A DNA stretch of 64,000 nucleotides from Candidatus Zixiibacteriota bacterium (GCA_034003725.1 JAVEYB010000002.1:142568-206567), one strand, 5' to 3'. Shown: positions 8,441 to 52,653, counted from the stretch's first letter. The notes: a model not told the origin generated them from the letters alone. Made by a program: numbers and translations.

Positions 8441-9817
8441 ATGCGGAAGATTTCATTTGTTCTGGCCACGGTGCTTTTCTGTGCCATTCCTGTATTCTCA
8501 CAGGTTGAGATTATCCTCGATGAGCAATGCGGCTACTTGCCCGGCGGGGACGTGCCGGCCAACTACTTCACTCAGGATATCTATATACAAAACCCGAACG
8601 ACACCGTCTGGGAGTTGTGTGTGGTTATGGCGCTCCACAAATCCTCCGATATCCCTTCGATTGATGTGGATCCCTCGTGGAGCTATGACGTCGATTCGAT
8701 GTTCGGGTACTCCGAGATTTTCGTGCTTCAGGAGGATTCCATAACCTATCTTTTGCTTGAATTCGGGCAACCGCTGTGGTTTGGCGCTGGAATCCAGCCC
8801 TCGGAAGACCCAATAAAGCTCTGTAATTTATGGGTCTCGTTCGCACCGTTTGAGAATTCAGAGCCTGAGCGCCGAATCTGGTTCGATTCTACCGCCTATG
8901 ATACGTTGTCTCATTTCTGGCACTACAACGCCAACTATGAAGGCAGCCAGATGGCGTTCTCCGGACCGCCTGAGTACCGGATTGCGTGGCTGCCAAATAC
9001 GGCTCCGATCATCCTTGAACCCAACCCTGGTGGAGAAATGTGGATTGCGGGACCCGGCTGCACAAAGACCGGGTGGTGGTGGCCGCATGTCAACGTCTTG
9101 TTGGAATTCGATAGCGTTGTGGCGGCCGTATATGGGCCGGGACAGATAACTCGAGCTGACCTGTACGGGGTGCAGTGGGAGTATACGCCGGCTCCGGAGG
9201 ATGCCGGGCAGACCTTCCAAATGTACATAGGTATCAACTTCGCCGTTTGCGGTGAACCGGTGACCTCCTACTTCACGAATCTCCATCCGTACATCATACA
9301 CGTCGGAGAGGCGGACACGAAACCCGAGTTTGTCCATTTCCAGCAGACCACTTATATCGCGAGCGTTGGCGAACCTCTTGAAATCTCGTTCGAACTCGAC
9401 GATCCCGATCCAGAATACAATACCTATCGCTACTACGTCAGTTCTCAGGACCCTGAGCCTCCCGCGACAATCGATCCGGAGACAGGCGTGTTCACGTTCC
9501 TCGGCAGTATCGACGATACGGCGACCTACTGGGTGAACGAAGTGGTCGAAGGGAAGTGTGGTGCGGTCGCCGATACGATCGGGTTCTTCGTGTATCTGTA
9601 CACGGATCCGGTCTGCGGTGACGCCAACCACAACGGCAATATCGACCTTTCCGACCTGATCTGGATCACCAACTACATGTTTATGGGTGGTGTAGAGCCC
9701 GTGCCACTGCTTTCCGGCGATGTCAATTGCGATAGTAATGTTGATTTGTCCGACCTGATCGGTCTGGTCAACTACCTCTTCATGGGCGGGGCGGCCCCCT
9801 GCGCCGACTGCCCGTGA
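8441..9817 (+). CDS. Secreted hypothetical protein with C-terminal dockerin-like double EF-hand module
   Basis: Signal peptide MRKISFVLATVLFCAIPVFSQ. Tail 9608-9814: CGDANHNGNIDLSDLIWITNYMFMGG..GDVNCDSNVDLSDLIGLVNYLFMGGAAPC. Confidence 0.75.
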   Translation: MRKISFVLATVLFCAIPVFSQVEIILDEQCGYLPGGDVPANYFTQDIYIQNPNDTVWELCVVMALHKSSDIPSIDVDPSWSYDVDSMFGYSEIFVLQEDSITYLLLEFGQPLWFGAGIQPSEDPIKLCNLWVSFAPFENSEPERRIWFDSTAYDTLSHFWHYNANYEGSQMAFSGPPEYRIAWLPNTAPIILEPNPGGEMWIAGPGCTKTGWWWPHVNVLLEFDSVVAAVYGPGQITRADLYGVQWEYTPAPEDAGQTFQMYIGINFAVCGEPVTSYFTNLHPYIIHVGEADTKPEFVHFQQTTYIASVGEPLEISFELDDPDPEYNTYRYYVSSQDPEPPATIDPETGVFTFLGSIDDTATYWVNEVVEGKCGAVADTIGFFVYLYTDPVCGDANHNGNIDLSDLIWITNYMFMGGVEPVPLLSGDVNCDSNVDLSDLIGLVNYLFMGGAAPCADCP

Positions 9818-9842
9818 GCAGTCTATTTTGTTGGATGACTCG

Positions 9843-9877
9843 AGCCCGCGTCGGAGGTTTTTCGGCGCGGGCTTTTC
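9843..9877 (+). terminator. Rho-independent terminator
   Basis: AGCCCGCG ... CGCGGGCT 8-bp stem followed by TTTT. Confidence 0.65.
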
Positions 9878-12636: not shown

Positions 12637-12640
12637 GGGT

Positions 12641-14758: not shown

Positions 14759-15044
14759 AATTGAATTGTCGTGGGTGTGTTTGTGATACCGAGCGGGGCT
14801 TTCGTTGTTGTGCTCAACCGGACATGGTGAATGCCTAAACAAGCTCGAGAAGGAGGATCCGGGGTGGCAGAACCGGTTCGTCCGAATTCTACGTTTCGAG
14901 GGGTCGTGAAAGGTGCAGTGCCGATTAACATCCGACCCGGGACGGTTGTACGGTACTTGGCGGGTCAGGAGTGGGGGCGGATATTCATCAGCGTCATGAT
15001 GGCGGGTTCGAAGGCGGATCTGCTACGGGGACCGATTTATGTGA

Positions 15045-15072
15045 TTGCCGGTTGGGGGATTTTTTGTATTAT
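15045..15072 (+). promoter_or_regulatory. Sigma70-like promoter candidate for the imuA-imuB-dnaE2 operon
   Basis: TTGCCG (15045-15050), 16-nt spacer, TATTAT (15067-15072). It lies immediately upstream of the LexA-box-like palindrome. Confidence 0.45.
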
Positions 15073-15074
15073 AG

Positions 15075-15096: not shown

Positions 15097-15097
15097 T

Positions 15098-15250: not shown

Positions 15251-15265
15251 GTAATAAGGGAAGAT

Positions 15266-36700: not shown

Positions 36701-37523
36701 TGGAAGAGACGTTCACGAGAGTGGTCTTGATACCCTTCTGCGTCTTCCAGTCGACGAGCGGCGCCATGGCAGCCGCGTACGAGTCGTAGGCGATAATCAG
36801 CATGTCGCCCGACTCCATGACGGGCGTGTATTTCTGCTCACTGCTGAAGTTGAGGAAGTGCCGGGAGTAGAGCAGGTCGAAATCCGGGACGGCCGCGGCC
36901 GATTTGCGATCGTACAGCGGATTTGCGCCGCCACTGCCTTCGGTTTCCACCTCGACGGTCACGGACGTGTAGACGCGAAGCGTTTTGGTATCCGGGTCGT
37001 ATTGGAACGGCTGCAGATCAATCACCGTCCCACGATAATCCCGGAGGATATACGGTTCACGCGTCGATGCAAGTTCCTGGGGGTAGAATCCGGGCTTGGA
37101 GTACTCCGGCCCAAAGACGTAGGGGACATCGGAGGGATTCACCGTTCGCAGCAGGTCACCCTTGGAGGGAGCGACCGGAGTGTTAGGGAAGTCGACGAAT
37201 TCAGCGTCGGTGACGCGAACGGCGACCGATCCCTGGTCGGCGATGATAATGCTGCGACTGATGCGCGGCAGAGAAGGCGCCCCTTCGATTCTGGTTTCCC
37301 CCTCCCCGGGAAGATCGATCAGGTTCCAGGTCGCGCCGTCTATGGTCGCCCCCGTGCGATCAAACGCGTTCACCTCAAACCGAACGACGGTACGCGAGTC
37401 GTTTGATTGTTGGACGATGACCTCAACATCGTCGCCCCCAGTGCCCAGCTCAATTCGTTCCGCGGAAACGAACGAGGCAGCGAATAGAACCAGGAAAGCA
37501 GCCGTTAGCACACTGATCCGCAT
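33786..37523 (-). CDS. Gingipain-like cysteine peptidase (family C25) with propeptide, CARDB-like repeats, jelly-roll domain and dockerin-like tail
   Basis: Signal peptide. C25 propeptide-like N-terminus, then VILVGDHNHV..SDPSY..YPDIFIGRFSA. His motif NYCGHGSTSAW and Cys motif IISVACVNGEF. Tail module at 33789-34013. Confidence 0.9.
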   Translation of the reverse strand: MRISVLTAAFLVLFAASFVSAERIELGTGGDDVEVIVQQSNDSRTVVRFEVNAFDRTGATIDGATWNLIDLPGEGETRIEGAPSLPRISRSIIIADQGSVAVRVTDAEFVDFPNTPVAPSKGDLLRTVNPSDVPYVFGPEYSKPGFYPQELASTREPYILRDYRGTVIDLQPFQYDPDTKTLRVYTSVTVEVETEGSGGANPLYDRKSAAAVPDFDLLYSRHFLNFSSEQKYTPVMESGDMLIIAYDSYAAAMAPLVDWKTQKGIKTTLVNVSSIGNTSTAIDAFIQNFYDTTNLAWVILVGDHNHVATPQVSGGASDPSYAKVAGTDDYPDIFIGRFSAESVADVETQVERTVDYETDPLIGDWLHRGTGVASTEGPGHFNEYDNEHMGFIRDDLLAFTYTEVDGLYGYAASATDVANALNAGRSIVNYCGHGSTSAWSTTGFSNTDVNDLVNTAMLPFIISVACVNGEFDGYTCFAEAWMRATDGSGDPTGAVAVYMSSINQTWDPPMDAQDEINDLLVAEAKTTFGGICFNGSCKMIDVNGSGGVSMYDTWHIFGDPSVQLRTDLPAALTVTHDPVMLISDTEFQVTVGGEEGALCAVSYNGVLFGSAFTDASGVAVIPFADALPVGQSMTLTVTAFNALPYVAGVTVITPSGPYVVFDGRTINDQLGNANGLIDIGEDILMGVQLINVGPDDAIDVVANITSADPYVTITDGSESYGTVTGDNGTAYVADGFAFTVAADAPDKHNISFDLEVTGTARDTWTGTFRVPVHAPVIGFVSVSVNDASGNQNGILDPGETADLVVNIQNTGTGRAVATEGYLYANDSYVTGDDTWSVFGLVDSINGAANNSADVFTVTADPTCPLGHPATMEIDIQAEGGYSATLQCEIVVGDRVVIFSDDFSYDQGWTGLGGSAEWQIGPPAGANGDPASDHSPSTDNQVLGNDLTSQGQYENYIGSTQWVTSPVIDCSAMTGTIMTFYRWLGIERATYDHAYFEVFDGSGWVRLYENPDVSFTDPSWQEQNFDVSAYADGNALFQLRFGMGTTDVSVRYCGWNIDDIEIKAYGTAAHPICQFAENEVTMTVAPGEQEVHNLVVRNLGDAVLRVTFTSNEIWLSCSTSAQLIDPADSLLFPVTFNCAGMEKAQYEGSLLYTTNDNMHLTGSIPVHLTVSCCVGLTGNINADPSDETDLSDLLYFVNFLFTSGPAPTCAPEANVTGDPEGNVDLTDLIYLVNYLFNAGPEPVPCQ

Positions 37524-37908: not shown

Positions 37909-40900
37909 TTACAAGCAGTGTGCCGGTGGAACTCCACCGAGGAAAAGATAATTGACGAGTGCGATGAGATCCGACAGATCGACTGCTCCGGCGAGATCGC
38001 CGTTGATGTTCGCTTCCTCCGGACACCACGGAGCCGGCCCGCCGAGGAACAGGTAGTTGACGAGGTAAATCAGGTCGGAGAGATCAATCGCCGCTCCTGA
38101 GTCGTTGATGTTGCCCGTTTCGTCGCGGCAGCAGGTGACCGGGGGATTGACGCAGGTGCATTGGACCGGCGCGCTGCCGGTACCGTTGATGTATGAATCG
38201 AGGAACGCGATGTCGGTGTAATCGATATCGCAGTCGCCATCGGGATCGGCGTTCGCCGGGACGGTTGGCGCGGGACCGCCTGAGTCGATAAACGACGCAA
38301 GATAGTCGATGTCGTCGCTGTCGATGACGCCGTTGTTGTCGACGTCGCCGGGGTATTGACCGGCGCAGGTGTCGAGCGGGCAGATGATGACGGCGTAATC
38401 GATGAGAGTGCGGATTTCACCTCCCGCATAGGGAATGGGTGGACCGCTCCATTCTGCCGGATTGAGCTGGAAGAAGTTGACGACGTCCGTCCAGAGGTCC
38501 GGATAGTCGATGAGTTCGACGATCGGGGGATACTGCGGACAGACCTGCTGAACGGCGAGGTTGTAGGCATCGTGCTGGATCTGACCGTGCGGACCGGAGA
38601 TGAGGGCGGCGTCGTTGTGCACGGCCGAGCCGTGCGCGGAGCCGGCGGGCGGTTCCCCTTCGTTGGCGTCGAAGTACGGATCGGAGATGCAGATGCGGAA
38701 CTCTTCGGGGCAGACGCCGGCGACGGTGACATAATGGCCACCGTGTCGTACGCAGCCCGAACCGGTCGGCTCGAACTCGTAGAAACCGAGCAGGAGGATA
38801 ACATCCTGTGACCGCATCACTTCGTCGCGGATCAGTTCAAACGGAGGCGCGGGGACAAGGACGCTGGTGTAGTCCCCCGCGAGGCCGACGCTGGACAGCC
38901 ATGCCTGCAGGCCGGTGAAGAGATCGAGGATGAAGGTTCCAATCCCTCCCGGCGGGCAGTTGGTATAGCGGGCCAGCGAATCAACGAAGGGAATGACATT
39001 CGACGGATCGTGGTCGTCCCACGGCCCGTACGGAGTGACGAGCGGGTAGTTGTCGTTGATGGTCGGCGGCACAACCGGGGTGGGTTCGAATTTCGAATCG
39101 AACCACCAGAAGCAGTTGGCAAGCGCCACCGGACCGCAGAAGGACCATCCGCCGAGCGGACCGCCGGTCCAGGCGTTCTGTTTCTGATCGAAGTCCGGCA
39201 TCCCGAACGGGGCATAATCCTCGTACGGAGCCTTGTAGTATTCGCACGTGTCCTGTTGAGGCTCTGTCGGACAGATTACGAACGCCTGACTGATGATCGT
39301 AATCACGGGTCCACCGTCGTAGGGAGCCCAGTCCTCCCACGCGTTCATGCCCAGGAAGTTGGTAACGAGCTCCGGTGGAGTCGGATAGTTCACTACTTCG
39401 ACAGGCACGAGGAATCCGGGAAGCATCATCGACGTGAGCATGTAGGGATCGTGCTGGATCTGACCGTGCGGGCCGCTGATGTTGTTGGCGTCATTGTGGA
39501 CGCCGCCGCCGTGAGCCGATCCTACGGGCGGCTCACCCTCGAGAGCGTCGAGGAACGGGTCGGAGATACAGATCTGGGTCTTCGTCGTACAGACGCCGGC
39601 CACGGTGACCCAGTGCCAGCCGATCGGCATGGGTATGGCGGCGGTTTCCTCATAAAACGCCAGCAGGAGGATTACGTCCTGACAGTCGAGGACCTGATCG
39701 CGGATGAACTCATAGGTCGGCAGCGGCACCAGGGTATCCTTGAAGTAAGGATCGAGACCGCGCTCAACGAAGATCTGCCTGACGGCGTCGACGAGGTAGT
39801 TCGGCGGGGTGCCGGACCCGTGGACATTCGTGCCCATACGCATGGCCAGATCGTTAATGAATGGAATGACGTTGGTGGTATCGTGATCGTCAAACGGGCC
39901 AAAGGCCTGCACCAGCGGGTAGTTGTCATTCGGGGGCGGGTTGCCCGGGCCGGGGAAGAACGGCCGAGGATCGATCGGGGAAGGTTCGAACCTGGAATCA
40001 AACCACCAGAGGCAGTTCGCCACGGCGGCGGGTCCGTCGTGCGACCACACGCCGAACTCGTCCTGCCACATGGCCTGTTTCTGGTCGAAGTCGGGCATTC
40101 CCTGCGGTGCGTAGTCGAGATACGGCGGTTTGTAGTACTCACACGGTTCTTCGGGCGCCTGCGGTTCGCCCGGACAGATCATGACCGCGTATTCAACTTC
40201 GGCGTGGTACGGGTACATGGTCGGGTCGGGATTGGCGAGGGTGACGCTCTGGAACTCGGCCGGGCAATTGGCGCCGGTCGGTGAGAAGCCGCGTGGGAAT
40301 CCGGGCAGCCACCAGGTGCCGCCGGGCGACGGTGAATCGAGCATGACCGGGTACGCATCATGCGACACCGGGTAGTCGTAGCTTCCGGGTGTGACCGGGT
40401 ACCAGTGAGTGGGATCGCGAGGGTCGTGCACGATACCGGCGTGCGAGGGCGGACGGACCCGTCCCGCGCCGCCGGCTTCGGCGTTATCGGTTTCGGGATC
40501 GGATACGGCGACCATCATTGTGGTCATATCGACACCGGCCATGGTGACATACCGGCCGCCGTCGCGCCACCACTGCTCACCGTCGAACCACCAGTTTCCG
40601 ATCAGCAGGATGATGTCCTGACAGACCATGAGCGATTCGGCCATCACGAAGAAGTCCGGCATCCGGTACGTGGTTTCGTAGAATTGCCACTTGGGGTCCG
40701 GATCCCAGAAGAACCGGGTGAGGCCGTCTTCCATGACGTGGACATCGGTGCCGCCCCAGGGGTCAAAGACGGTGTCCGAATGGAAATAGGTGAACAGCTC
40801 GTCCTTGAGCTCGATCGCGTTGACAAAGGGGTAGTAGCCCATCGCTCCGTACCACCAGAGGCAGTTCGTGACGGCGGTGGGTCCGCTGTGGCAGGGGAGC

Positions 40901-41952
40901 TGACTCGGGAAGTCCGGCATGCCGGTCAGCGCGTAAGTGGTGTCGGGTTTCCAATACCAGGTGTCCGGTGTCTCCCTCGGGCAGATGATTTCGGCGTACT
41001 CAATGACGGCGAAGATCGGCCCCGGAATACCGGGCGGGCAGGTGGTTCCTCCATTCTGATCGACGAACTCGTAGGCGAAGGGATCGGCCGGGTAGTCGGG
41101 GAGGAAAAGGCATCCTGCAACCGTCTCGCAGAGGGTCGGGTCCATGACGGCTATGGAGTATATGTCATGCGAGACGACCGCGGCGTCGTTGTGCGAGGGT
41201 GGCGGCGGACTGGCGAGGTCGAGGTACGGATCGGAGACGGCGATGAGCGCTTCGACGGAGTCAACGCCGGCAACGGTCACGTAATGGCCGCCCAGCCGGC
41301 AGCATTCCTGGGGGTTGCCGCCGGGCGCCAGATAGAAGCCAATGAGGAGAATGACATCCTGGCTGCGCCGCACTTCGCCGGCAAGGAAGTCCCAGGTGAA
41401 GGCGCCGCACGAATAGAGATTGACGTCGTAGTCGTCAAGGAGTCCTCTGGATGCCAGCCAGTCACGGACGCCGGCGTCAAAATCGACGATATTCGTTCCG
41501 GGTGCGAGAAGATTGGTATTCAGCGTGGTCGCCATAGCGGCCACGAGCGGTTGAACGTTTAATGGATCATGGTCATCCCACTGGGCGTAAGGGGTTACGA
41601 GTGGGTAGTTATCGCTGATTCCGGGCGGCACGACCGGAAGTGGTTCGAACTTTGAATCGAACCACCAGAGGCAGTTGGCCAGAGCGACGGGACCGCAATA
41701 GCCGGCGTCGACGCTGCCGTCCGGCGGTTGCGAGAAGTCCTGTACCTGGCTGAAGTCGGGTGTGCCCGAGGGACAGTAGTCCGGATACCCGGCTTTGAAG
41801 TAGAATTCCTTTTCGCCTCGGTCTGGCTGAGCGGAAGGGGGAGTCCCGGATGAAGTCGGCGGTGTCGGTTGCGATTGCTCGGGGATCACCGGCAATCCGA
41901 TCAGGAGAACGATGGCCATGAAAAGAAAAGCGGAATGATACCACTTCAACAT
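37909..41952 (-). CDS. Secreted 1347-aa protein built from four ~270-300-aa tandem repeats of a putative papain-fold (C39_2-like) thiol peptidase domain, plus a classical dockerin-like pair and the Cys-framed tail module
   Basis: Each repeat has MPDF-x-Q, (C)GP-x-A-x-x-NC-x-WW, QD[VI]ILL, GG[HR]YVT[VM]AGV, [IV]SDP and ends in ..ICP... GDVDNNGVIDSDDIDYL is a classical dockerin-like pair. Tail module at 37912-38133. Confidence 0.8.
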   Translation of the reverse strand: MLKWYHSAFLFMAIVLLIGLPVIPEQSQPTPPTSSGTPPSAQPDRGEKEFYFKAGYPDYCPSGTPDFSQVQDFSQPPDGSVDAGYCGPVALANCLWWFDSKFEPLPVVPPGISDNYPLVTPYAQWDDHDPLNVQPLVAAMATTLNTNLLAPGTNIVDFDAGVRDWLASRGLLDDYDVNLYSCGAFTWDFLAGEVRRSQDVILLIGFYLAPGGNPQECCRLGGHYVTVAGVDSVEALIAVSDPYLDLASPPPPSHNDAAVVSHDIYSIAVMDPTLCETVAGCLFLPDYPADPFAYEFVDQNGGTTCPPGIPGPIFAVIEYAEIICPRETPDTWYWKPDTTYALTGMPDFPSQLPCHSGPTAVTNCLWWYGAMGYYPFVNAIELKDELFTYFHSDTVFDPWGGTDVHVMEDGLTRFFWDPDPKWQFYETTYRMPDFFVMAESLMVCQDIILLIGNWWFDGEQWWRDGGRYVTMAGVDMTTMMVAVSDPETDNAEAGGAGRVRPPSHAGIVHDPRDPTHWYPVTPGSYDYPVSHDAYPVMLDSPSPGGTWWLPGFPRGFSPTGANCPAEFQSVTLANPDPTMYPYHAEVEYAVMICPGEPQAPEEPCEYYKPPYLDYAPQGMPDFDQKQAMWQDEFGVWSHDGPAAVANCLWWFDSRFEPSPIDPRPFFPGPGNPPPNDNYPLVQAFGPFDDHDTTNVIPFINDLAMRMGTNVHGSGTPPNYLVDAVRQIFVERGLDPYFKDTLVPLPTYEFIRDQVLDCQDVILLLAFYEETAAIPMPIGWHWVTVAGVCTTKTQICISDPFLDALEGEPPVGSAHGGGVHNDANNISGPHGQIQHDPYMLTSMMLPGFLVPVEVVNYPTPPELVTNFLGMNAWEDWAPYDGGPVITIISQAFVICPTEPQQDTCEYYKAPYEDYAPFGMPDFDQKQNAWTGGPLGGWSFCGPVALANCFWWFDSKFEPTPVVPPTINDNYPLVTPYGPWDDHDPSNVIPFVDSLARYTNCPPGGIGTFILDLFTGLQAWLSSVGLAGDYTSVLVPAPPFELIRDEVMRSQDVILLLGFYEFEPTGSGCVRHGGHYVTVAGVCPEEFRICISDPYFDANEGEPPAGSAHGSAVHNDAALISGPHGQIQHDAYNLAVQQVCPQYPPIVELIDYPDLWTDVVNFFQLNPAEWSGPPIPYAGGEIRTLIDYAVIICPLDTCAGQYPGDVDNNGVIDSDDIDYLASFIDSGGPAPTVPANADPDGDCDIDYTDIAFLDSYINGTGSAPVQCTCVNPPVTCCRDETGNINDSGAAIDLSDLIYLVNYLFLGGPAPWCPEEANINGDLAGAVDLSDLIALVNYLFLGGVPPAHCL

Positions 41953-42223: not shown

Positions 42224-42250
42224 GAAGAGAAATCGATGTTCAATCGCGAG

Positions 42251-45200
42251 TTACTGACACGGTTGTGGCAGCGGACCCGAATTAAACAGGAAGTTCACGA
42301 GGTAGATGAGATCCGAGAGGTCGGTCTGTCCATCGAGGTCGCCGTCAACATTGGCTTCCGCGGGGCAGGGAATCGGGGCTCCGCTGGAGAACAGGTAGTT
42401 GACGAAGTAGATGAGATCGGACAGGTCGACTTCATCCTGGGCGTCATTGTTGACATTACCTGTCAAGCCGACGCAACAGGCGACGGTTAAGGTTACCGGA
42501 ATCACACCGGTCGGATGGCCGCCATCGTTTGAAGTGTAGGTTAGGCTGCCGGTGTGTACGCCCTGAGACATGCCACCGCAGTTGACCTGAACCGGGAACT
42601 CAACGCTGTCGCCGGCAGCAATGACCAGCTGGTCGCCGGAGCAGGAGAGCCAGGTATAGGCCGAGGCGAAGGTGATGCGGAGAGCGCCGTCACCGGCGTT
42701 TCTCACGGTGATGTACTCGGTCGTCGCCGACCCGGGCTGCAGCATGACATGAAGTTCATCGTCGGGGATGTCGCACACCGGGGTGGCCGCAGTTCCGTAG
42801 CCTTTCAACTCGATGTCGTCAATGTTCCAGCCGCAATAGGTTAGGGACACGTCGGTTGTGCCCATACCGAAGCGGATCTGGAAATCGGGGTTGTGGTCGG
42901 CGTAGGCCCCTACGTCATAATTCTCTTCTGTCCAGTTGCCATCGGTGAACGAATTGTCCGGGTTTGCATAGAGCTGCACCCAGTCGGTGCCGTCAAACAC
43001 GGACAGGTATACGTGGTCGTACTGGCTCCGTTCGACACCGAGCCAGCGATAGAACTTGAACAGCACGCCGCTCATATTGCTGCAGTCGATAACCGGTGAG
43101 GTGACCCACTGCGTTGGCGAGATGTAGTTCTCATACTGGCCGTCGCCATTGAGATCGTTTCCGAGGACGGCATTATCGGAGGTTCCGGAATAGTCACTGG
43201 CCGGATCGCCGCCGATTCCGCCCACCGGACCCATCTGCCACTCGGCGGAGCCGCCAAGGCCGGTCCAGCCCTGATCGTACGAGAAATCATCGAAGAAGAA
43301 GACGACCCGGTCACCGACGGTGATGTCGAATGACAGAGCTTTCGTGAAGCCGTTGTCGGCGCTGATGTCGAGCGACACGGTAACGCCATAACCCATCGGG
43401 CACCCGGCGTCGACAGACACTTCGAACGGGTCGCCGGAGTTGATCGCCATGCCGTTCACAGAGTCCACCAGTCCGTAGTAGCCGTAGTTGTCGCTGATGC
43501 TGACAAAGGGGTCGGCGACGAACAGCATGCCGGAGGTATTGATGGCCTGGCCGGTACCGCTGTTTTCGATAGTAACGGTAATGGAAGCCGTCTCTCCGGG
43601 GTCGATGATGCCATTGTCGTTACCCGCGTCGTCGATGGCAACCGAGACAATACCGATTTCGGGCGCGTGGACGGGGACACGGAACGAGCCGGTCCATGTG
43701 TCACGGGCGGTCCCGGTCACCTCGATATCGAAGGCGATCTGGTATTTATCCGGGCAGGTTGACGACACCGTGAATGCGAAGCCGTCGGCGACGTAGGCCG
43801 TGCCATTATCGCCGATGATCGTGCCGTACGACTCGGCATTATCGGTGATGGTGACGTACGGGTCGGTGGTGCTGATGGTCGCGTTGACGTCGTAGGCGTC
43901 ATCGGGACCAACGTTAATCAGCTGAACACCCATGAGGATCGCTTCGCCGGCGTCCACGAGTCCGTTGTCGTTGCCGGAGGCATCATTGACGGACGCGTCG
44001 TCGAAAATGACATACGGGCCGGAGGGGGTAATCACCTGAATGGCGCCGAAGTACGGCTCGCGATTCTGGGCGGTTACGACCACGTTGGCGACGCCCGGGG
44101 CGGCGAATCCGGCGAGGTCAATGGTAGTCGTTCCCGACGTGCCGATGTATCCGGAACCCTGCAGTTCGCCGTTGAAGGTGATGCCGACGTATGATCCGGG
44201 ATCAGCTGAAATGGTGAGGCTGGTCGTGGCGAGCACCACGGCAGCATCGTGGGTCACGTTGTTGACGGCCGGGATGCCGAGGTAGGTCATCACGGAGGGA
44301 TCACCCATGAGGTGATAGATTTCCCAGTAATAGTCTTCCCGGCTGGAACCCGACTCGCTGACGGCCATGTTGCCGGCAAAAACGATGGCATCATTGGTGA
44401 CGTAGTGGAAGTTGACGGGTTCGCCGTGGTCGTGGAAGAGACCGTCGTAGGCGCCCAGCGTGGTCTGCTCATAGGTTGGGCCGGCGGCCACAACCGGGCC
44501 GTAGCCGACGCCCCAGTAGTAATCTTCGTACCAGTACGTGGAATTGGAGCCGCCGATGTAGCCGATACCGCCGCGTTCGGAGATCTGCAGGAACGCCTCA
44601 CCGAAGCACGGGGTGGAGTAATCGGTTCCAAACGTGTTCGACTCACAGCAGTTACCGATGCCGAGCAGGTACTGATGCCAGTTGGTCAGGCCGGGGATAT
44701 CGGATGTGTTGAACGGCGGGTCGGCATGCCCTGAGTGCGAGCAGTGGGCGGTGTAGTTGTACAGCCCTGCGCCGTCGTTAATGGACTGAATAATTGCGGC
44801 GGCCGCGCCGGACTGGTCCGACGCCGGATACAGCCAGACGTGCGGCGTGATGCCGTGCAGCGCGTTGAAATACAGGGTCGTGCCGTAGTTGAGCTGGCCG
44901 TTGCCGTGCGTGGCGGCGTAGGTGCCGTCAACACCGGAGACGAGGGTGACGAATTCGAGATAGGACGGATCGGGCATCTCGTAGCGTTCGTACTCCAGCG
45001 TCTTATCGATCTGGGGCTGCAGTTGGGTGGTGTTCTGCGCCGAGAAGCGGCCGTAGTAGATCTCGGGGAAGATGTCGCCGGTGAACTCGCAGAACCGGAG
45101 GTCGGTGACGTGTGACCCGGTCGAACCGGAGAACGGCGGAATCTGCTGGGCGTCGCCGACGAACAGAACAAACGACGGCGCCGGGTCAGCCGGCGTCCCG

Positions 45201-46147
45201 GCATTGTACAGCCCCTGGATATATGACTTTATGGCCGTACTGGAGGTTCCGATGACGTCGGTATAGGCGGTGATGACCTCAAAGCCCTTTTCCGTTTTCC
45301 ATTCGATAAACGGCTGAAGCTGCGCTTCAAACATCCGATCCGAGACGATCAGGTACTTCACCGGATATTCGACAAGGTCGTCCTTGTACGTGGAGGCCTG
45401 CTCGGTGTAATTCATGACGCGATAAAGGGCCGGTTCAAAGTAGGGCGAATATCCTTTGCGAAAGTTGGCTTCCGTTTCCGCCCAGTCGGGGTTATTGAAC
45501 GCAACCCGGACGGTGACCTTGTTGTACACGCGGATGCGGGCGTTGACAGGGTCGTATTCGATCGGGGCGACGGAGACGAGGGCGAGGCGGACGGACCGCA
45601 TGACGCCCTTGATTTCAGTGTTGACCAGCGGGAGGGAGTAGTATCCGGGCTGCTGGTACATGGCCGTATTGATTTCGAACGGTATCGACATCGGATCCTC
45701 CGACTTCGACACCGACGGCTGGACCGGCATGAGCGGATAGGTCAATCCGAGATCGGTGAGCGAGTATTCCTCGAAATCACTGGCGATGACTTCTGCGGAC
45801 AACTCGCAGCCGAACGGGATAGAGATCAGTCGATTGGCCGTCGGCAGGGAGGGCTCGCCGATGCGCTGTGACCGGGCGAGTCCGGCACCCGAGAGAAGCG
45901 TGTAAACGCCCTGCTGGGTGACGACTTCTTCGAACATGAGTGAGCCGACGTCAACTCTGACAGTGAGGCCGGAATTGTCTTGCGAGAGGAGGGTCATGGC
46001 GTTCTCGGCATCGCTGACTTGCAGTGTAGTGGTGGCGTGTCCGACACCGACCCAGAGCAGGCAGGCAACAAGAAGCAGACCCAGACCAATAGCCCTTTTT
46101 GCCACAATGACCTCCGATTTCCTTAAGTCGCTAAGGGTTACAATCAT
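42251..46147 (-). CDS. Gingipain-like cysteine peptidase (family C25), paralog of 33786-37523, with dockerin-like tail
   Basis: FVLFVGDAQQIP..TDLRF..FPEIYYGRFSA. His region NYTAHCSHSGHA and Cys region LLGIGNCCESNTF. The C-terminal half is collinear with the other C25 (..TGTARDTWTG[ST]FRVPVHAP..). Tail module at 42254-42478. Confidence 0.9.
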   Translation of the reverse strand: MIVTLSDLRKSEVIVAKRAIGLGLLLVACLLWVGVGHATTTLQVSDAENAMTLLSQDNSGLTVRVDVGSLMFEEVVTQQGVYTLLSGAGLARSQRIGEPSLPTANRLISIPFGCELSAEVIASDFEEYSLTDLGLTYPLMPVQPSVSKSEDPMSIPFEINTAMYQQPGYYSLPLVNTEIKGVMRSVRLALVSVAPIEYDPVNARIRVYNKVTVRVAFNNPDWAETEANFRKGYSPYFEPALYRVMNYTEQASTYKDDLVEYPVKYLIVSDRMFEAQLQPFIEWKTEKGFEVITAYTDVIGTSSTAIKSYIQGLYNAGTPADPAPSFVLFVGDAQQIPPFSGSTGSHVTDLRFCEFTGDIFPEIYYGRFSAQNTTQLQPQIDKTLEYERYEMPDPSYLEFVTLVSGVDGTYAATHGNGQLNYGTTLYFNALHGITPHVWLYPASDQSGAAAAIIQSINDGAGLYNYTAHCSHSGHADPPFNTSDIPGLTNWHQYLLGIGNCCESNTFGTDYSTPCFGEAFLQISERGGIGYIGGSNSTYWYEDYYWGVGYGPVVAAGPTYEQTTLGAYDGLFHDHGEPVNFHYVTNDAIVFAGNMAVSESGSSREDYYWEIYHLMGDPSVMTYLGIPAVNNVTHDAAVVLATTSLTISADPGSYVGITFNGELQGSGYIGTSGTTTIDLAGFAAPGVANVVVTAQNREPYFGAIQVITPSGPYVIFDDASVNDASGNDNGLVDAGEAILMGVQLINVGPDDAYDVNATISTTDPYVTITDNAESYGTIIGDNGTAYVADGFAFTVSSTCPDKYQIAFDIEVTGTARDTWTGSFRVPVHAPEIGIVSVAIDDAGNDNGIIDPGETASITVTIENSGTGQAINTSGMLFVADPFVSISDNYGYYGLVDSVNGMAINSGDPFEVSVDAGCPMGYGVTVSLDISADNGFTKALSFDITVGDRVVFFFDDFSYDQGWTGLGGSAEWQMGPVGGIGGDPASDYSGTSDNAVLGNDLNGDGQYENYISPTQWVTSPVIDCSNMSGVLFKFYRWLGVERSQYDHVYLSVFDGTDWVQLYANPDNSFTDGNWTEENYDVGAYADHNPDFQIRFGMGTTDVSLTYCGWNIDDIELKGYGTAATPVCDIPDDELHVMLQPGSATTEYITVRNAGDGALRITFASAYTWLSCSGDQLVIAAGDSVEFPVQVNCGGMSQGVHTGSLTYTSNDGGHPTGVIPVTLTVACCVGLTGNVNNDAQDEVDLSDLIYFVNYLFSSGAPIPCPAEANVDGDLDGQTDLSDLIYLVNFLFNSGPLPQPCQ

Positions 46148-50660: not shown

Positions 50661-50796
50661 CTGCCCTCGTATATCGCGTTATCAATCTTCCATTGCCGAA
50701 ATTCGGTAATCGCGTATCTTATCCATAATGGAGTAGACATCGCCGGGCGTCGGGCGACTTGCCGATTCTCCAGTCACTATCAGCCGGGAGTTCTGT

Positions 50797-52653
50797 ATGC
50801 GCAAGAGTCCGTTGGTCCTGGGGCTTGTACTGCTTGTTTGTCTGCTGGCATCGCCGAAGGCGGTTCAGGCGGACTCTACCGAAACGTTACTGCCGATCGG
50901 GTTGACGGAGGAGGAAAAGGGGCGTCTGCACGAAATCGGCAAGAATCATACGGTGACGAAGGCGCCGACCGGCGTGCTGCGGAATCCGGCGGAGTGGGAA
51001 CCCTCGGAGGGGGTGATTATTCGCTGGCCTCTCGGGATATCGGTTGCGCTGGTTCGCGAGATGTCGGAGGACCTGATGGTTACGACTATCGTCGCCAACT
51101 CGAGCGAGCAGGCCTCGGCAACGAGCGCATACCAGAGCGGGGGGGTGGTGATGGCCAACACGCAGTTCCTGATTGCATCGACAAATTCGATATGGACCCG
51201 CGACTATGGACCATGGTTCATATTCTCGGATGAAGCGCTGGGTATCGTGGACCACATCTACAACCGACCGCGTCCGCTTGACGACCTGATTCCCGGCATA
51301 CTCGGCAGTCAGTGGGGTATTCCGGTGTACGGGATGGACCTGATTCACACGGGCGGCAACCACATGTCCGACGGACTGGGCCGTTCGATGTCGACGCGGC
51401 TGGTCTACAACGAGAATTCCGGCAAGACGCCCGCGCAGGTTGATTCGATCATGCTCGCGTACCTGGGCAACGACTATACGGTGCTGGACTATATTGAGAG
51501 CGGCGGCATTCACCATATCGATTGCTGGGCGAAGTTTCTGAGTCCGACCACCATAATGGTGAAGGATGTTCCGGTGGGCGATTACAGCTATGAGTTGCTG
51601 AATGACCGTGCCGAGTACCTCTCCCAGCAGGTATCCGCATGGGGGCAGCCGTACACGATCGTACGGGTGTATTGTCCGTACGGCACCGCTTATACCAATT
51701 CGATTATTCTGAACGACAAAGTGCTGGTGCCGATATTCGGTTCCGGATACGACAATATCGCGTTACAGACGTACCGCGACGCGATGCCCGGATATGAGGT
51801 GATCGGTTTTACGGGATCCTGGTACGATGACGACGCCGTTCACTGCCGGACGATGGGGGTCCCGGATCGATACATGCTGCGCGTACACCACGTGCCGCTG
51901 GTTCGTGTCGCGGACTCGCTTGCCGGGTATGAGATCAGCGCGCTGATTCATGCGTGTTCCGGAGCGGCGCTGATTGGCGACTCGCTGAAGGTAGTGTATC
52001 GGGTCGGAGAAGGGGAGTGGGAAAGCGCGTTGCTCAGCGCCGGGACGGAGACGGACTGGTTTGACGGGACTCTTCCACCGCAGGCTTCAGGGGCGGAGGT
52101 CTCTTACTACGTTCAGGCGGCCGACCTGTCCGGCCGGATGGAGACCCACCCATATATCGGAGCGCCGGGGGCGCACCGCTTTTCCGTCAATATCACACCG
52201 ACGATAGTGGCGGATTCGAGCATTCTGTGTACCGGCGGAACCACTATTGCGTTCTGTCCGGATATTGTCGACGGTGAAGATTCCTCTCATACGATCACGT
52301 ATGCGAACTACCCAGCGTGGTTGTCGCCGTCGGGAGACAGCCTTACAGGCACGGTGCCGATGGGGATGACATCGACGGGTTCGTTTGATGTAGTTGTCAG
52401 TGATGCATACAACAGCGCAGCTCAGACAGTGGCGCTGGATGTGATCCTCTGCGGAGATGTGAACGACGATGCCATCGGTCCTGATCTTTCCGATTTGATA
52501 TACCTGGTCAACTATCTGTTCCTGTCGGGTCCGGCGCCGAATTCGGCGACGGCGTCGAACGTGGACGGGGTCGGGGGAGTGGACTTGTCGGATCTTATCT
52601 ACCTGGTCAACCTGCTGTTCATGGGCGGACCGCCGGCAACCTGCGGGCTCTGA
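50797..52653 (+). CDS. Secreted agmatine deiminase / Porphyromonas-type peptidylarginine deiminase family enzyme with Ig-like domains and dockerin-like tail
   Basis: Signal peptide. IWTRDYGPWF, GGNHMSDG, GGIHHIDCWAKF and the catalytic-Cys motif DDAVHCRTMGVP are PAD_porph family hallmarks. Tail module at 52450-52650. Confidence 0.85.
   Translation: MRKSPLVLGLVLLVCLLASPKAVQADSTETLLPIGLTEEEKGRLHEIGKNHTVTKAPTGVLRNPAEWEPSEGVIIRWPLGISVALVREMSEDLMVTTIVANSSEQASATSAYQSGGVVMANTQFLIASTNSIWTRDYGPWFIFSDEALGIVDHIYNRPRPLDDLIPGILGSQWGIPVYGMDLIHTGGNHMSDGLGRSMSTRLVYNENSGKTPAQVDSIMLAYLGNDYTVLDYIESGGIHHIDCWAKFLSPTTIMVKDVPVGDYSYELLNDRAEYLSQQVSAWGQPYTIVRVYCPYGTAYTNSIILNDKVLVPIFGSGYDNIALQTYRDAMPGYEVIGFTGSWYDDDAVHCRTMGVPDRYMLRVHHVPLVRVADSLAGYEISALIHACSGAALIGDSLKVVYRVGEGEWESALLSAGTETDWFDGTLPPQASGAEVSYYVQAADLSGRMETHPYIGAPGAHRFSVNITPTIVADSSILCTGGTTIAFCPDIVDGEDSSHTITYANYPAWLSPSGDSLTGTVPMGMTSTGSFDVVVSDAYNSAAQTVALDVILCGDVNDDAIGPDLSDLIYLVNYLFLSGPAPNSATASNVDGVGGVDLSDLIYLVNLLFMGGPPATCGL

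What the first reader, a model, noticed from the sequence alone, without database searches (positions are those of the whole stretch)
9608..52650. Seven secreted proteins share one cysteine-framed ~70-aa C-terminal dockerin-like module
Tail modules lie at 9608-9814(+), 28201-28425(-), 29810-30028(-), 33789-34013(-), 37912-38133(-), 42254-42478(-) and 52450-52650(+). By eye the consensus is CC-x-G-x-TGN-[IV]-N-x-D-x(3-5)-DLSDLI-x-LVNYLF-x-GG-P-x-P-x-CP-x-EAN-[IV]-x-GD-x(3-5)-DLSDLI-x-LVN[YF]LF-x-GG-P-x-P-x-C. That is two EF-hand-like Ca-binding loops plus helices, as in type I dockerins. Conserved Cys residues sit at the start, the middle and the extreme C-terminus, with the protein ending 1-2 residues after the last Cys. 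The strict terminal position, the Cys frame and the cargo types make it look like a dedicated sorting or assembly tag. Cargo comprises C25 peptidases, a papain-like repeat protein, a PAD-family enzyme, an FN3 protein and unknowns. The gingipain-like enzymes here carry this tag instead of the T9SS CTD that gingipains carry in Porphyromonas.
Basis: seen in the sequence. Interest (0 to 1): 0.7.

Follow-up and report, generated by a model that had tools for sequence, protein, structure and literature searches.

The report
Disulfide-stapled dockerin tails on secreted enzymes
Seven secreted proteins of an uncultured Zixibacteria/GN15-like bacterium end in a cysteine-stapled, unusually diverged dockerin, which most likely clips proteases and other enzymes onto a neighbouring cohesin-like surface protein rather than acting as a new export signal.

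Summary
Exactly seven ~70-aa modules lie at the stated coordinates, each ending 1-2 residues before a stop codon, and each protein has a signal-peptide-like N-terminus.

The module has the dockerin fold. The AlphaFold model has pLDDT 93.8, and its 29 best PDB matches are all dockerins. It is a diverged subfamily:
- Its Ca-loops are 13-14 residues long instead of 12.
- Its Cys positions co-vary.
- Pfam Dockerin_1 detects only 1 of the 7 tails.

The subfamily is common in Zixibacteria/GN15, Ignavibacteriales and Calditrichaeota MAGs. One relative carries at least 49 tail-bearing proteins, mostly peptidases and adhesin-like proteins. The module is usually C-terminal (123 of 139) but also occurs N-terminally and internally. 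That argues against a sorting signal.

It encodes two cohesin-like modules and a genuine T9SS C-terminal domain, so it is a candidate surface scaffold. Homologous C25 peptidases end either in this tail or in a T9SS CTD.

Best reading: a non-cellulosomal cohesin-dockerin display system for proteases. A comparable system was proposed for Cloacimonadota in 2021. This is a new variant of a known kind. Binding, Ca2+ dependence and the disulfides are inferred, not shown.

The parts
9608..9814 (+). Tail t1 on p1. Variant with canonical 12-residue loops and the Cys pattern C...NCD...CxxC.
   Evidence: 94.5 bits; Pfam Dockerin_1 32.4 bits, the only tail that passes.
28201..28425 (-). Tail t2 on p2. CC...C...C type with 14-residue loops.
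   Evidence: 129 bits; no Pfam hit.
29810..30028 (-). Tail t3 on p3. It has an extra loop-1 Cys and an extra middle Cys (the co-varying pair, columns 11/37).
   Evidence: (110 bits).
33789..34013 (-). Tail t4 on the C25 peptidase p4.
   Evidence: (127 bits).
37912..38133 (-). Tail t5 on the repeat protein p5.
   Evidence: 124 bits.
42254..42478 (-). Tail t6 on the C25 peptidase p6. This is the module that was modelled.
   Evidence: 125 bits; pLDDT 93.8; top 29 PDB matches are dockerins.
52450..52650 (+). Tail t7 on the PAD-family protein p7. Two-Cys 'clasp' variant: C at the start, C near the end, no middle Cys.
   Evidence: (93.6 bits).
8441..9817 (+). p1, 458 aa. Signal peptide, unknown cargo, tail t1.
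   Evidence: (no family for the cargo part).
28198..29646 (-). p2, 482 aa. Signal peptide, then 2 x (dockerin-like pair + beta module), then tail t2. It is a paralogue of Sca residues ~817-970.
   Evidence: (E 3e-12 and 1e-10).
29807..30385 (-). p3, 192 aa from the ATG at 30385. Signal peptide, FN3-like domain, tail t3.
   Evidence: fn3 E 5.7e-4, below cutoff; 192-aa orthologue with a tail next to the Sca orthologue.
33786..37523 (-). p4, 1245 aa. Gingipain-like C25 peptidase (propeptide, catalytic domain, Ig-like domains) with tail t4.
37909..41952 (-). p5, 1347 aa. Four ~280-aa repeats, possibly C39/papain-like (unconfirmed), then a second type of dockerin, then tail t5.
38185..38352 (-). 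Internal dockerin of p5. A different Cys-framed type (C..QYPGD...NADPDGDC...PVQCTC), directly upstream of tail t5.
   Evidence: Dockerin_1 27.2 bits, aa 1201-1256; 25 bits to the tail HMM; the same type in tandem arrays in relatives.
42251..46147 (-). p6, 1298 aa. Second gingipain-like C25 peptidase, with tail t6.
50797..52653 (+). p7, 618 aa. Porphyromonas-type peptidyl-arginine/agmatine deiminase family protein with tail t7.
   Evidence: (PAD_porph E 1.5e-29).
24690..28031 (-). 'Sca', 1113 aa, the candidate scaffold/anchor. Signal peptide, Ig/cadherin-like domains, two cohesin-like modules, a dockerin-like pair, a beta module and a T9SS C-terminal domain.
26769..27359 (-). Cohesin-like module A of Sca.
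   Evidence: Pfam Cohesin 25.6 bits against a cutoff of 24.1; only profile positions 3-54 aligned; 190 bits to the module HMM.
25572..26255 (-). Cohesin-like module B of Sca. It has four conserved Cys.
   Evidence: 14 best PDB hits are all cohesins, E 0.004-0.3; 6/19 members hit Pfam Cohesin at E<=1, best E 1.3e-4; 226 bits.
25332..25553 (-). Dockerin-like pair inside Sca (RGDLNLDGIPYTIADAV...SDINADGDPFTIEDFV), shared with p2.
   Evidence: (Dockerin_1 E 0.011, below threshold).
24693..24968 (-). T9SS C-terminal sorting domain of Sca.
   Evidence: Por_Secre_tail 29.0 bits against a cutoff of 27; FlgD_ig 43.4 bits; orthologues named 'T9SS type A sorting domain-containing protein'.

Best explanation
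The tail is a diverged, disulfide-stapled dockerin. It consists of two near-identical halves, each a Ca-binding-type loop followed by a helix (core motif D-L-S-D-L-I-Y-L-V-N-Y-L-F-x-G-G-P). In most copies the loops are lengthened from 12 to 13-14 residues. Cysteines lock the N-terminal segment, the inter-repeat linker and the C-terminal segment together.

Proposed mechanism:
1. The enzymes are exported by Sec.
2. They fold in the periplasm, where the disulfides form.
3. They reach the cell surface.
4. There the tail docks non-covalently onto cohesin-like modules of a scaffold that is itself exported and anchored by the type IX secretion system. The best candidate is the neighbouring gene, 24690-28031(-).

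The result would be a surface-displayed, mainly proteolytic multi-enzyme assembly of C25 gingipain-like peptidases, a PAD-family enzyme and adhesin-like proteins.

Shown here: the seven copies, their homology to one another, the predicted dockerin fold, the conservation and co-variation of the Cys positions, the cargo repertoire, and the presence of a cohesin-like protein with a T9SS CTD next door and in related genomes.

Inferred, not shown: Ca2+ binding, the disulfides themselves, binding to a cohesin, which cohesin is the partner, and how the tailed proteins cross the outer membrane.
For: Homology and fold:
- The seven tails score 94-129 bits against one another.
- The profile's best PDB sequence matches are C. 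thermocellum dockerins.
- The AlphaFold2 model has pLDDT 93.8 and pTM 0.82, with helices at 24-35, 44-47 and 59-70 and an N-to-C beta-bridge.
- The 29 best Foldseek matches in the PDB are all dockerins. The best is 4fl4_A: probability 1.00, TM 0.80, rmsd 1.7 A over 70 columns.
- The two halves are 60-80% identical in 6 of 7 tails, spaced 33-35 residues apart. This is as in dual-binding type I dockerins (my own knowledge of that family).

It behaves as a binding module, not a terminal signal:
- It is usually terminal: 123/139 modules lie within 12 aa of the stop.
- The same CC..C..C module also occurs directly after a signal peptide (L066, L074) and internally (L028, L041, L059; P0123, P0126 and others).
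- It follows arrays of other dockerin types.

Cys frame:
- Columns 1, 2, 38 and 74 co-occur.
- The extra loop-1 Cys (column 11) and the extra linker Cys (column 37) co-occur 42 times, against 5 and 1 single occurrences (phi 0.93).

Partner:
- Sca has Pfam Cohesin above the gathering score.
- A profile of its module hits only cohesins as its 14 best PDB matches.
- Sca ends in a T9SS CTD.
- Sca-like genes lie within one or two genes of tail genes in the window, in MAG50 (L076 and L027) and in Zixibacteria bin1124 (L077).

Alternative anchors on the same cores:
- Among the 120 closest homologues of p4, 82 end in the tail and 5 in a T9SS CTD.
- p2 is a paralogue of the Sca C-terminal half with the tail where Sca has the CTD.
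- Of 131 tail-bearing reading-frame segments (stop-to-stop translated stretches) and 16 strong CTD-bearing segments in the relatives' loci, none carries both modules.

Precedent:
- Dockerin-tailed C25 and S8 peptidases, together with a cohesin scaffoldin bearing a T9SS CTD, were proposed for Cloacimonadota (PMC8542988).
Against: - The cohesin assignment of Sca is weak. Only the first ~55 of 139 Pfam positions align. PDB E-values are 0.004-0.3. Module B of the window protein itself gives no Pfam hit on its own. The whole-protein fold search was uninformative.
- No binding was tested.
- Sca carries only 2-3 cohesin-like modules, against at least 49 tailed proteins in a related genome.
- Adjacency is weak evidence because tail genes are so frequent.
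- The lengthened loops may not bind Ca2+ as canonical F-hands do.
- Tailed proteins lack a T9SS CTD, and the window shows no other outer-membrane export route. How they reach a surface scaffold is unexplained.
- The Cys co-variation statistics ignore the relatedness of the sequences.
Confidence: 0.6

Rival explanations
1. The tail is a dedicated C-terminal export or sorting signal. An outer-membrane translocon or a sortase-like enzyme would recognise it, and possibly cleave it, as happens with the T9SS CTD.
For: - Most copies sit at the extreme C-terminus: 119/139 within 5 residues of the stop. 43 of 67 terminal CC-type copies end exactly one residue after the last Cys.
- The tail and the T9SS CTD are mutually exclusive alternatives on homologous C25 cores.
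- Tailed proteins have no other recognisable outer-membrane export signal.
Against: - The same module occurs at the N-terminus and in the middle of proteins, and related forms occur in tandem arrays.
- It is clearly homologous to dockerins and predicted to share their fold, and dockerins are binding modules.
- It is alpha-helical, whereas the T9SS CTD is a beta-sandwich (PMC4804311 abstract).
- It has no hydrophobic anchor or basic tail of the kind seen in sortase or exosortase signals.
- Solved dockerins also usually sit at C-termini (my own knowledge of the family).
Confidence: 0.1
2. The tail is a dockerin-fold interaction module whose ligand is not a cohesin. Candidates are another dockerin-like module (p2 and Sca carry such pairs), a cell-surface glycan or LPS, or a different beta module such as the '...SLDHVDG...NGFRVYS...' unit that alternates with these dockerins in some relatives.
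For: - The cohesin evidence for Sca is marginal.
- Relatives P0101 and P0108 alternate dockerins with a conserved ~200-aa module of unknown function and end in the tail.
- Several internal CC-type modules are followed by that same unit.
- Non-cellulosomal dockerins without matching scaffoldins are reported (PMC9012536).
Against: - Every solved dockerin complex among the structural matches is with a cohesin.
- A cohesin-like protein with a T9SS CTD is present, conserved in related genomes, and close to tail genes.
Confidence: 0.2
3. The tail has no partner. It is a Ca2+- and disulfide-stabilised C-terminal cap that protects secreted enzymes, which sit in a protease-rich environment, against proteolysis or unfolding.
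For: - The cargo set is rich in peptidases.
- The Cys staples suggest selection for stability.
Against: - The exposed helix residues (DLSDLIYLVNYLF) are nearly invariant across ~50 paralogues that have unrelated cargo. That is the signature of a shared binding surface, not of a passive cap.
- The module also occurs N-terminally and in tandem arrays.
Confidence: 0.05

Closest known systems
Type I dockerins of clostridial cellulosomes (Pfam PF00404; e.g. PDB 4fl4, 2mte, 1ohz)
   Same: - About 70 aa, usually C-terminal.
- A tandem duplication of a Ca-loop plus helix.
- A three-helix fold (predicted here: TM 0.7-0.8, rmsd 1.5-2 A).
- The two halves are highly similar, which suggests two equivalent binding faces.
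- One conserved module on dozens of different enzymes in one genome.
   Different: - Loops of 13-14 residues instead of 12 in five of the seven tails.
- A conserved, co-varying Cys frame of 2, 4 or 6 Cys. I know of no such frame in clostridial dockerins (my own knowledge).
- Below Pfam detection in 6/7 tails here and in at least 46/49 tail-bearing proteins of a relative.
- The host is a diderm of the Zixibacteria/GN15 lineage.
- The cargo is peptidases and adhesin-like proteins, with no glycoside hydrolase among the 25 most frequent families listed.
Proposed cellulosome-like complex of Ca. Stygibacter (Cloacimonadota), Williams et al. 2021 (PMC8542988)
   Same: Signal-peptide enzymes, including a gingipain-like C25 peptidase and an S8 peptidase, carry C-terminal dockerins. 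A cohesin-bearing scaffold protein ends in a T9SS CTD for surface attachment.
   Different: - That system was recognised with standard domain models and has a 3,755-aa scaffoldin with tandem cohesins and CBMs.
- Here the dockerin is a Cys-framed subfamily that standard models miss.
- The candidate scaffold has only 2-3 atypical cohesin-like modules with a Cys-rich insert and no CBM.
- Neither system has been tested experimentally.
T9SS C-terminal domain (Por_Secre_tail / 'type A sorting domain') of gingipains
   Same: A C-terminal module of about 70-90 aa that decides where secreted FCB-group enzymes end up. It is interchangeable with the tail on homologous C25 peptidases in the same phylum.
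   Different: - The CTD is a beta-sandwich export signal that is cleaved by PorU (PMC4804311 abstract).
- The tail is helical, has the dockerin fold, shows no HMM similarity to the CTD, and is not restricted to the C-terminus.
Intramolecular 'clasp' of type II/III dockerins, and non-cellulosomal dockerins in general
   Same: The N- and C-terminal segments of the module are brought together to stabilise it. The model has a beta-bridge between residues 10 and 78. The occurrence outside cellulose degraders also matches non-cellulosomal dockerins (PMC9012536).
   Different: Here the clasp would be covalent (Cys to Cys) rather than a stacking contact. The comparison with the published clasp rests on my own knowledge, not on a test made here.

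Membership tests
Dockerin (type I, Pfam PF00404) | Scores above the Pfam gathering threshold (22.9 bits) | tested here: not met
   Only t1 passes (32.4 bits). The other six tails give no Dockerin_1 hit even at E<=10. In a related genome 3 of 49 tail-bearing proteins hit Dockerin_1, and the hit shown, for member 1, lies on its internal dockerin.
Dockerin (type I, Pfam PF00404) | Tandem duplication of a ~22-residue loop+helix segment | tested here: met
   There are two DL[ST]D[LV]-helix segments 33-35 residues apart. The halves are 12-16/20 identical in six tails and 8/20 in t3.
Dockerin (type I, Pfam PF00404) | 12-residue EF-hand-type Ca loop with D/N at positions 1, 3, 5, 9 and 12 | tested here: inconclusive
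   - The acidic/amide ligand positions are conserved.
- Loop length is 12/12 only in t1.
- It is 14/14 in t2, t3, t4 and t6, 13/14 in t5 and 13/12 in t7.
- Whether the longer loops bind Ca2+ cannot be told from sequence.
Dockerin (type I, Pfam PF00404) | Three-helix dockerin fold | tested here: met
   This rests on a predicted model only: pLDDT 93.8. The top 29 Foldseek PDB matches are all dockerins, with probability up to 1.00, TM (target) 0.70-0.82 and rmsd 1.5-2.0 A for the best.
Dockerin (type I, Pfam PF00404) | Ca2+-dependent binding to a cohesin | not testable with these tools
   No complex prediction or binding assay was available. The only evidence is a candidate partner nearby.
Cohesin (Pfam PF00963), for the neighbouring protein Sca | Scores above the gathering threshold over the domain | tested here: inconclusive
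   - The full protein scores 25.6 bits against a cutoff of 24.1, but only profile positions 3-54 of 139 align.
- The excised module A scores 22.3 bits, and module B gives no hit.
- 6 of 19 module sequences hit Cohesin at E<=1.
Cohesin (Pfam PF00963), for the neighbouring protein Sca | Nine-stranded beta-sandwich related to solved cohesins | tested here: inconclusive
   - The 14 best PDB matches of the module profile are all cohesins, but at E 0.004-0.3 and over the first ~55 residues only.
- The AlphaFold model is beta-rich at residues 227-421 and 594-820.
- The Foldseek search of the whole 1113-aa model was swamped by Ig/cadherin arrays.
T9SS C-terminal sorting domain (Por_Secre_tail, TIGR04183 type) | HMM match and beta-sandwich structure at the C-terminus of the tailed proteins | tested here: not met
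   - Pfam and NCBIfam give no CTD hit on p1-p7.
- A CTD HMM built from Sca orthologues hits only Sca in the window.
- The tail model is helical.
T9SS C-terminal sorting domain (Por_Secre_tail, TIGR04183 type) | Present on the candidate scaffold Sca | tested here: met
   - Por_Secre_tail scores 29.0 bits against a cutoff of 27, and FlgD_ig scores 43.4 bits.
- NCBI names the orthologues 'T9SS type A sorting domain-containing protein'.
Sortase/exosortase-type C-terminal signals (LPXTG, PEP-CTERM, GlyGly-CTERM, MYXO-CTERM) | Short motif followed by a transmembrane helix and a basic tail at the extreme C-terminus | tested here: not met
   - There is no strongly hydrophobic C-terminal stretch: the maximum Kyte-Doolittle 15-residue mean in the last 45 residues is 1.75 or less.
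- The proteins end 1-2 residues after a Cys.
- No NCBIfam sorting-domain hit.

The most novel reading that the evidence does not exclude
The tail could be a 'hitch-hiker' tag. Tailed enzymes would fold and oxidise in the periplasm and dock there onto the cohesin-like modules of the CTD-bearing scaffold. They would then be carried through the T9SS translocon as a pre-assembled complex. One CTD would export and anchor many CTD-less enzymes. This would explain two things: why about 50 secreted proteins per genome have no outer-membrane export signal of their own, and why the tail and the CTD are strict alternatives on homologous enzymes.
Probability: 0.08. Interest if true: 0.85.

Novelty: new variant of a known kind. 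Interest (0 to 1): 0.45.

Why it matters
- **Annotation.** If the reading is right, a large set of 'hypothetical' secreted proteins in Zixibacteria/GN15, Ignavibacteriales and Calditrichaeota MAGs are members of cohesin-dockerin surface assemblies that current domain models overlook. The profile search found 5,563 representative proteins at E<=1e-10, although that count includes related dockerin types.
- **Ecology.** The cargo points to protein rather than polysaccharide degradation. This matters for how these abundant sediment and soil lineages feed.
- **Protein engineering.** A covalently stapled dockerin would be a useful, more robust alternative to clostridial dockerins.
- **Cell biology.** The system raises a concrete question: how do CTD-less, dockerin-tailed enzymes reach a T9SS-anchored scaffold in a diderm cell?

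Tried and rejected
1. **Chance or low-complexity repeat: rejected.** Seven hits at 94-129 bits, and nothing else in 64 kb apart from one related dockerin.
2. **Ordinary Pfam dockerin: rejected.** This holds for 6 of 7 tails.
3. **T9SS CTD or a known NCBIfam sorting domain in the tails: rejected.** No hits.
4. **Fold search of the whole 1113-aa Sca model: uninformative.** It returned only Ig/cadherin-type arrays and could not confirm or deny the cohesin fold.
5. **First genome scan with the 7-sequence alignment: failed.** It had no conserved 7-10-column stretch. The scan succeeded with a 3-sequence alignment.
6. **'Papain-like' p5: not confirmed.** One repeat has no PDB sequence match and only a sub-threshold Peptidase_C39_2 hit (E 0.12).
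7. **Literature.**
   - No paper in the held library combines Zixibacteria with dockerin.
   - A combined search on Zixibacteria, gingipain, T9SS and cohesin listed no paper that mentions Zixibacteria.
   - Searches on dockerin with FCB or Ignavibacteria added nothing specific.
   - A search combining dockerin, disulfide and cysteine gave no title that suggests this module; only PMC9012536 was opened.
   - Peer et al. 2009 on non-cellulosomal dockerins is not held.
8. **Conserved synteny as proof of partnership: only weak.** The Sca-p3 adjacency is conserved in MAG50. In the more distant bin1124 the neighbours differ, apart from one tailed gene about 0.9 kb away.

Full report
**1. Observation**

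Each is the last 67-75 residues of a long ORF and is followed directly by the stop codon.

An HMM made from the seven tails was run against all six reading frames of the 64-kb window. It recovers exactly these seven at 94-129 bits (E 1e-28 to 3e-39). The only other match is a 25-bit hit to a different dockerin that sits just upstream of the tail in p5. The next hit has E about 9.

In the alignment the invariant positions are G7, the two D-L-S/T-D motifs, the helix residues L, V, L and F, and the last Cys. The Cys frame is not uniform:
- t2, t4, t5 and t6 have CC...C...C.
- t3 has a single start Cys, an extra Cys in loop 1 and a CC in the linker.
- t1 has C...NCD...CxxC.
- t7 has only a start Cys and an end Cys.

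All seven proteins start with a basic n-region and a hydrophobic core. None has a hydrophobic C-terminal segment.

The call is weak for p3 (fn3, E 5.7e-4) and unconfirmed for p5 ('papain-like'): the only match is a sub-threshold Peptidase_C39_2 hit, and there is no PDB sequence match.

**2. What the module is**

Pfam Dockerin_1 recognises only t1 (32.4 bits). The other six give no Dockerin_1 hit even at E<=10, and NCBIfam has nothing for any of them.

A profile of the seven tails still finds C. thermocellum dockerins as its best PDB sequence matches (E about 0.02). An AlphaFold2 model of t6, built with 71 aligned relatives, is very confident: pLDDT 93.8 and pTM 0.82, with helices at 24-35, 44-47 and 59-70 and a beta-bridge between residues 10 and 78. 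Its 29 best Foldseek matches in the PDB are all dockerins. The best is 4fl4_A, with probability 1.00, TM 0.80 and rmsd 1.7 A over 70 columns.

So the module has the dockerin fold and is a remote dockerin homologue.

The reason Pfam misses it is visible in the sequence. t1 has canonical 12-residue loops. The others have 13-14-residue loops (t2, t3, t4, t6: 14/14; t5: 13/14; t7: 13/12).

The two halves of each tail are 60-80% identical over the helix in six of the seven tails. In clostridial type I dockerins this kind of symmetry goes with two equivalent binding faces (my own knowledge of the family).

**3. Relatives, position and the Cys frame**

A full HMMER scan of 1.84 billion representative proteins gave 29,068 proteins at E<=1e-3, 5,563 at E<=1e-10 and 49 at E<=1e-30. 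The lower-scoring part of this list will include other dockerin types.

Where the sources name the organism, the names are candidate division Zixibacteria, GN15 and Calditrichaeota.

A scan of one genome per species found 75 loci:
- An unclassified MAG, 'MAG50' (JAHLKV01), is syntenic with the window and contributes most of them.
- The complete Zixibacteria chromosome CP070824 has at least 11.
- Others come from Ignavibacteriales and Calditrichaeota MAGs.
- One contig sits in an Aenigmatarchaeota bin, which I suspect is misbinned.

In these loci 139 modules were found. Of these, 119 end within 5 residues of a stop, 4 within 6-12 residues, and 16 are internal. Among the best 150 representatives, the CC+middle-C+end-C type is C-terminal in 63 of 70 cases. 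43 of 67 terminal copies end exactly one residue after the last Cys.

The exceptions are informative:
- The same module lies directly after a signal peptide in L066 and L074.
- It lies in the middle of proteins in L028, L041, L059, P0123, P0126 and others.
- The two-Cys relatives form arrays of 9-12 tandem copies (P0094, P0095, P0097).

The Cys positions behave as pairs:
- Columns 1, 2, 38 and 74 co-occur.
- The extra loop-1 Cys (column 11) and the extra linker Cys (column 37) occur together 42 times, and alone 5 and 1 times (phi 0.93).

These counts ignore the relatedness of the sequences, so the p-values are inflated. The pattern is nonetheless what disulfide partners would give.

The Cys frame is conserved in relatives, so the finding is not refuted on that count. 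The position is predominantly but not exclusively C-terminal, which weakens the 'terminal tag' idea.

**4.

ORF 24690-28031(-), 1113 aa, lies directly next to p2. I call it Sca here. Its features are:
- **A signal peptide.**
- **Ig/cadherin-like domains.**
- **A Pfam Cohesin match above the gathering score.** It scores 25.6 bits against a cutoff of 24.1, but only over profile positions 3-54.
- **A C-terminal T9SS sorting domain.** Por_Secre_tail scores 29.0 bits against a cutoff of 27, and FlgD_ig scores 43.4 bits.

Full-length orthologues (44-59% identity) exist in GN15 and MAG50, and a 1319-aa relative exists in Zixibacteria bin1124. NCBI names these 'T9SS type A sorting domain-containing protein'.

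The protein contains two copies of a ~200-aa module (residues ~225-421 and ~593-820). The bin1124 relative has three copies. A profile of 19 copies of this module has four conserved Cys. All of its 14 best PDB matches are cohesins, but at marginal E-values (0.004-0.3) and only over the first ~55 residues. Six of the 19 copies hit Pfam Cohesin at E<=1, with a best E of 1.3e-4.

The AlphaFold model is beta-rich in both regions. The fold search of the whole model was swamped by Ig-like arrays and does not help.

I therefore call the modules 'cohesin-like': the assignment is supported but not proven.

**5. Links between the tail and the T9SS-anchored protein**

- **Proximity.**
  - In the window, Sca is next to p2 and p3.
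  - In MAG50 the Sca orthologue is next to the p3 orthologue, in a block syntenic with the window.
  - A second protein with a cohesin-like module and a CTD (L027 6635-9241) lies between two tail genes.
  - In bin1124 a tailed gene lies ~0.9 kb from the Sca-like gene.
  - Because tail genes are frequent, this is only modest evidence.
- **Paralogy.** p2 is a paralogue of the C-terminal half of Sca (dockerin-like pair plus beta module; E 3e-12). It carries the tail where Sca carries the CTD.
- **Alternative endings.** Of the 120 closest homologues of the C25 peptidase p4, 82 end in the tail, 5 end in a T9SS CTD, 1 has an internal copy, and 32 have neither. Many of the 32 are fragments, and one group ends in a single half-dockerin.
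- **Mutual exclusion.** In the relatives' loci, CTD-bearing genes are interleaved with tail-bearing genes. Of 131 tail-bearing reading-frame segments (stop-to-stop translated stretches) and 16 strong CTD-bearing segments, none carries both modules.

**6. Cargo**

In MAG50 the loci alone give 49 distinct tail-bearing proteins. Their Pfam families are:
- Peptidases: S8 (3), C25 (2), M28 (2), M14 and M4.
- PAD_porph.
- Repeat, adhesin or lectin-type domains: PKD, FG-GAP, BNR, sortilin, Ig-like and lectin-like.

No glycoside hydrolase is among the 25 most frequent families listed. Only 3 of the 49 proteins match Dockerin_1. For the one member whose table was printed, that hit lies on an internal dockerin, not on the tail.

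**7. Mechanism I consider most likely (confidence about 0.6)**

The tail is a disulfide-stapled dockerin. It docks Sec-exported enzymes onto cohesin-like modules of a T9SS-anchored surface protein and so builds a mainly proteolytic surface assembly.

That the fold is a dockerin fold I regard as nearly certain. Docking to a cohesin-like partner is an inference. That Sca is the partner is a further inference, which I put at about 0.4.

The Cys staples fit a diderm cell in which the module folds in an oxidising periplasm. The candidate partner module also has conserved Cys.

The unexplained step is how CTD-less tailed proteins cross the outer membrane.

**8. Rivals**

- **Dedicated sorting or export signal (0.1).**
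  - For: the terminal position and the exclusivity with the CTD.
  - Against: the N-terminal and internal copies, the tandem arrays, the dockerin homology, the helical rather than beta-sandwich structure, and the absence of a membrane anchor.
- **Dockerin-fold module with a non-cohesin ligand (0.2).** It stays open because the cohesin evidence is marginal, and because some relatives alternate these dockerins with another conserved ~200-aa unit.
- **Passive stabilising cap (0.05).** It does not explain the near-invariant exposed helix residues across ~50 paralogues with unrelated cargo.

**9. Comparison with what is known**

The closest family is the type I dockerin. The module shares its architecture and predicted fold. 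It fails the family's sequence threshold in 6 of 7 cases and departs in loop length and in the Cys frame.

The closest system is the cellulosome-like complex proposed from MAGs of Ca. Stygibacter (Cloacimonadota). There, signal-peptide enzymes, including a C25 gingipain-like peptidase, carry C-terminal dockerins, and a cohesin scaffoldin ends in a T9SS CTD (PMC8542988). The general idea is therefore not new.

What appears new is the following:
- This specific dockerin subfamily, Cys-stapled, loop-expanded and invisible to Pfam.
- Its abundance in Zixibacteria/GN15 and their neighbours.
- The atypical Cys-containing cohesin-like module.
- The clear either/or use of the tail or the CTD on homologous peptidases.

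I found no paper in the held library that describes it. The library is incomplete, and the key review on non-cellulosomal dockerins is not held.

**10. Verdict**

- Novelty: a new variant of a known kind.
- Interest is moderate (0.45).
- The most novel reading not excluded is hitch-hiking of tailed enzymes through the T9SS on the CTD-bearing scaffold (probability about 0.08).

Noticed in passing
window 14831-20744 (+): Three consecutive genes: a RecA-like protein (383 aa), an IMS/ImuB-like Y-family polymerase homologue (557 aa) and a DnaE-type pol III alpha (1036 aa). This looks like an ImuA-ImuB-DnaE2 damage-inducible mutagenesis cassette. The DnaE gene is syntenic in MAG50.
   Followed up: no
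window 37909-41952 (-), p5: Four tandem ~280-aa repeats with conserved 'CGPVALANCLWWF' and 'GGHYVTVAGV' motifs, which could be a Cys/His catalytic pair. There is only a sub-threshold Peptidase_C39_2 hit (E 0.12) and no PDB sequence match. A protein with four putative peptidase-like units in a row is unusual.
   Followed up: partly
window 38185-38352 (-); also P0098, P0099, P0102, P0109, P0112: A second, distinct Cys-framed dockerin type ('C..Q.PGD...NADxNGDC...PVxCTC') precedes the tail in p5. In relatives it forms arrays of 3-8 copies that end in one CC-type tail. Proteins made of little else than dockerins may be adaptors.
   Followed up: partly
P0094 (720 aa), P0095 (1187 aa), P0097 (1006 aa): Proteins made of 9-12 tandem two-Cys 'clasped' dockerins. 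P0095 and P0097 also have an N-terminal signal peptide followed by a short N-terminal segment that could be coiled-coil (not tested). Their organism and function are unknown.
   Followed up: no
window 28198-29646 (-), p2, and 25332-25553 (-) in Sca: p2 and Sca share a further dockerin-like pair ('RGDxNLDGIPxTIxDAV...') followed by a ~100-aa beta module (E 3e-12). It scores below Pfam Dockerin_1 (E 0.011). The scaffold candidate may therefore itself dock onto something.
   Followed up: partly
P0324, P0325, P0340, P0343, P0347, P0351 and others (homologues of p4): A group of Zixibacteria C25 peptidases ends in a single half-dockerin ('GDVNGNC.F.G.D.TYLV.YF.G...C') followed by a ~25-aa extension with several basic residues, instead of the full tail or a T9SS CTD.
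   Followed up: no
L066 10120-10863, L074 8977-9738: Small proteins in which the CC-type module comes directly after the signal peptide and is followed by a ~140-aa Cys-rich domain. The same domain follows an internal module in L041.
   Followed up: no
P0101, P0108 and the sequences after the internal modules of P0123, P0126, P0134, P0168, P0196: A conserved ~200-aa unit ('...SLDHVDG...NGFR[VI]YS...DT[VI]GF...') alternates with dockerins in several relatives. It is a possible alternative binding partner or a second scaffold type.
   Followed up: no
L028 (contig JBDRNB010000038.1): A 1902-aa protein with two CC-type modules lies on a contig binned as Candidatus Aenigmatarchaeota. One locus is labelled Sedimentisphaerales (L036). 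Misbinning is more likely than true occurrence, but transfer is not excluded.
   Followed up: no
window 46629-50660 (+), 55373-59911 (+), 60375-62120 (+): The cluster of tailed genes is interleaved with very large sensory proteins:
- a multi-PAS/GAF hybrid histidine kinase;
- a Ser/Thr kinase with about 8 PAS domains and a LuxR-type output;
- a dCache histidine kinase.
These are possible regulators of the secreted enzymes.
   Followed up: no
window 30603-32501 (+) and 52799-55294 (+): Two further peptidase genes in the cluster, a retropepsin-like aspartyl protease with a PDZ domain and an S9 prolyl-oligopeptidase family protein, carry neither the tail nor a T9SS CTD.
   Followed up: partly
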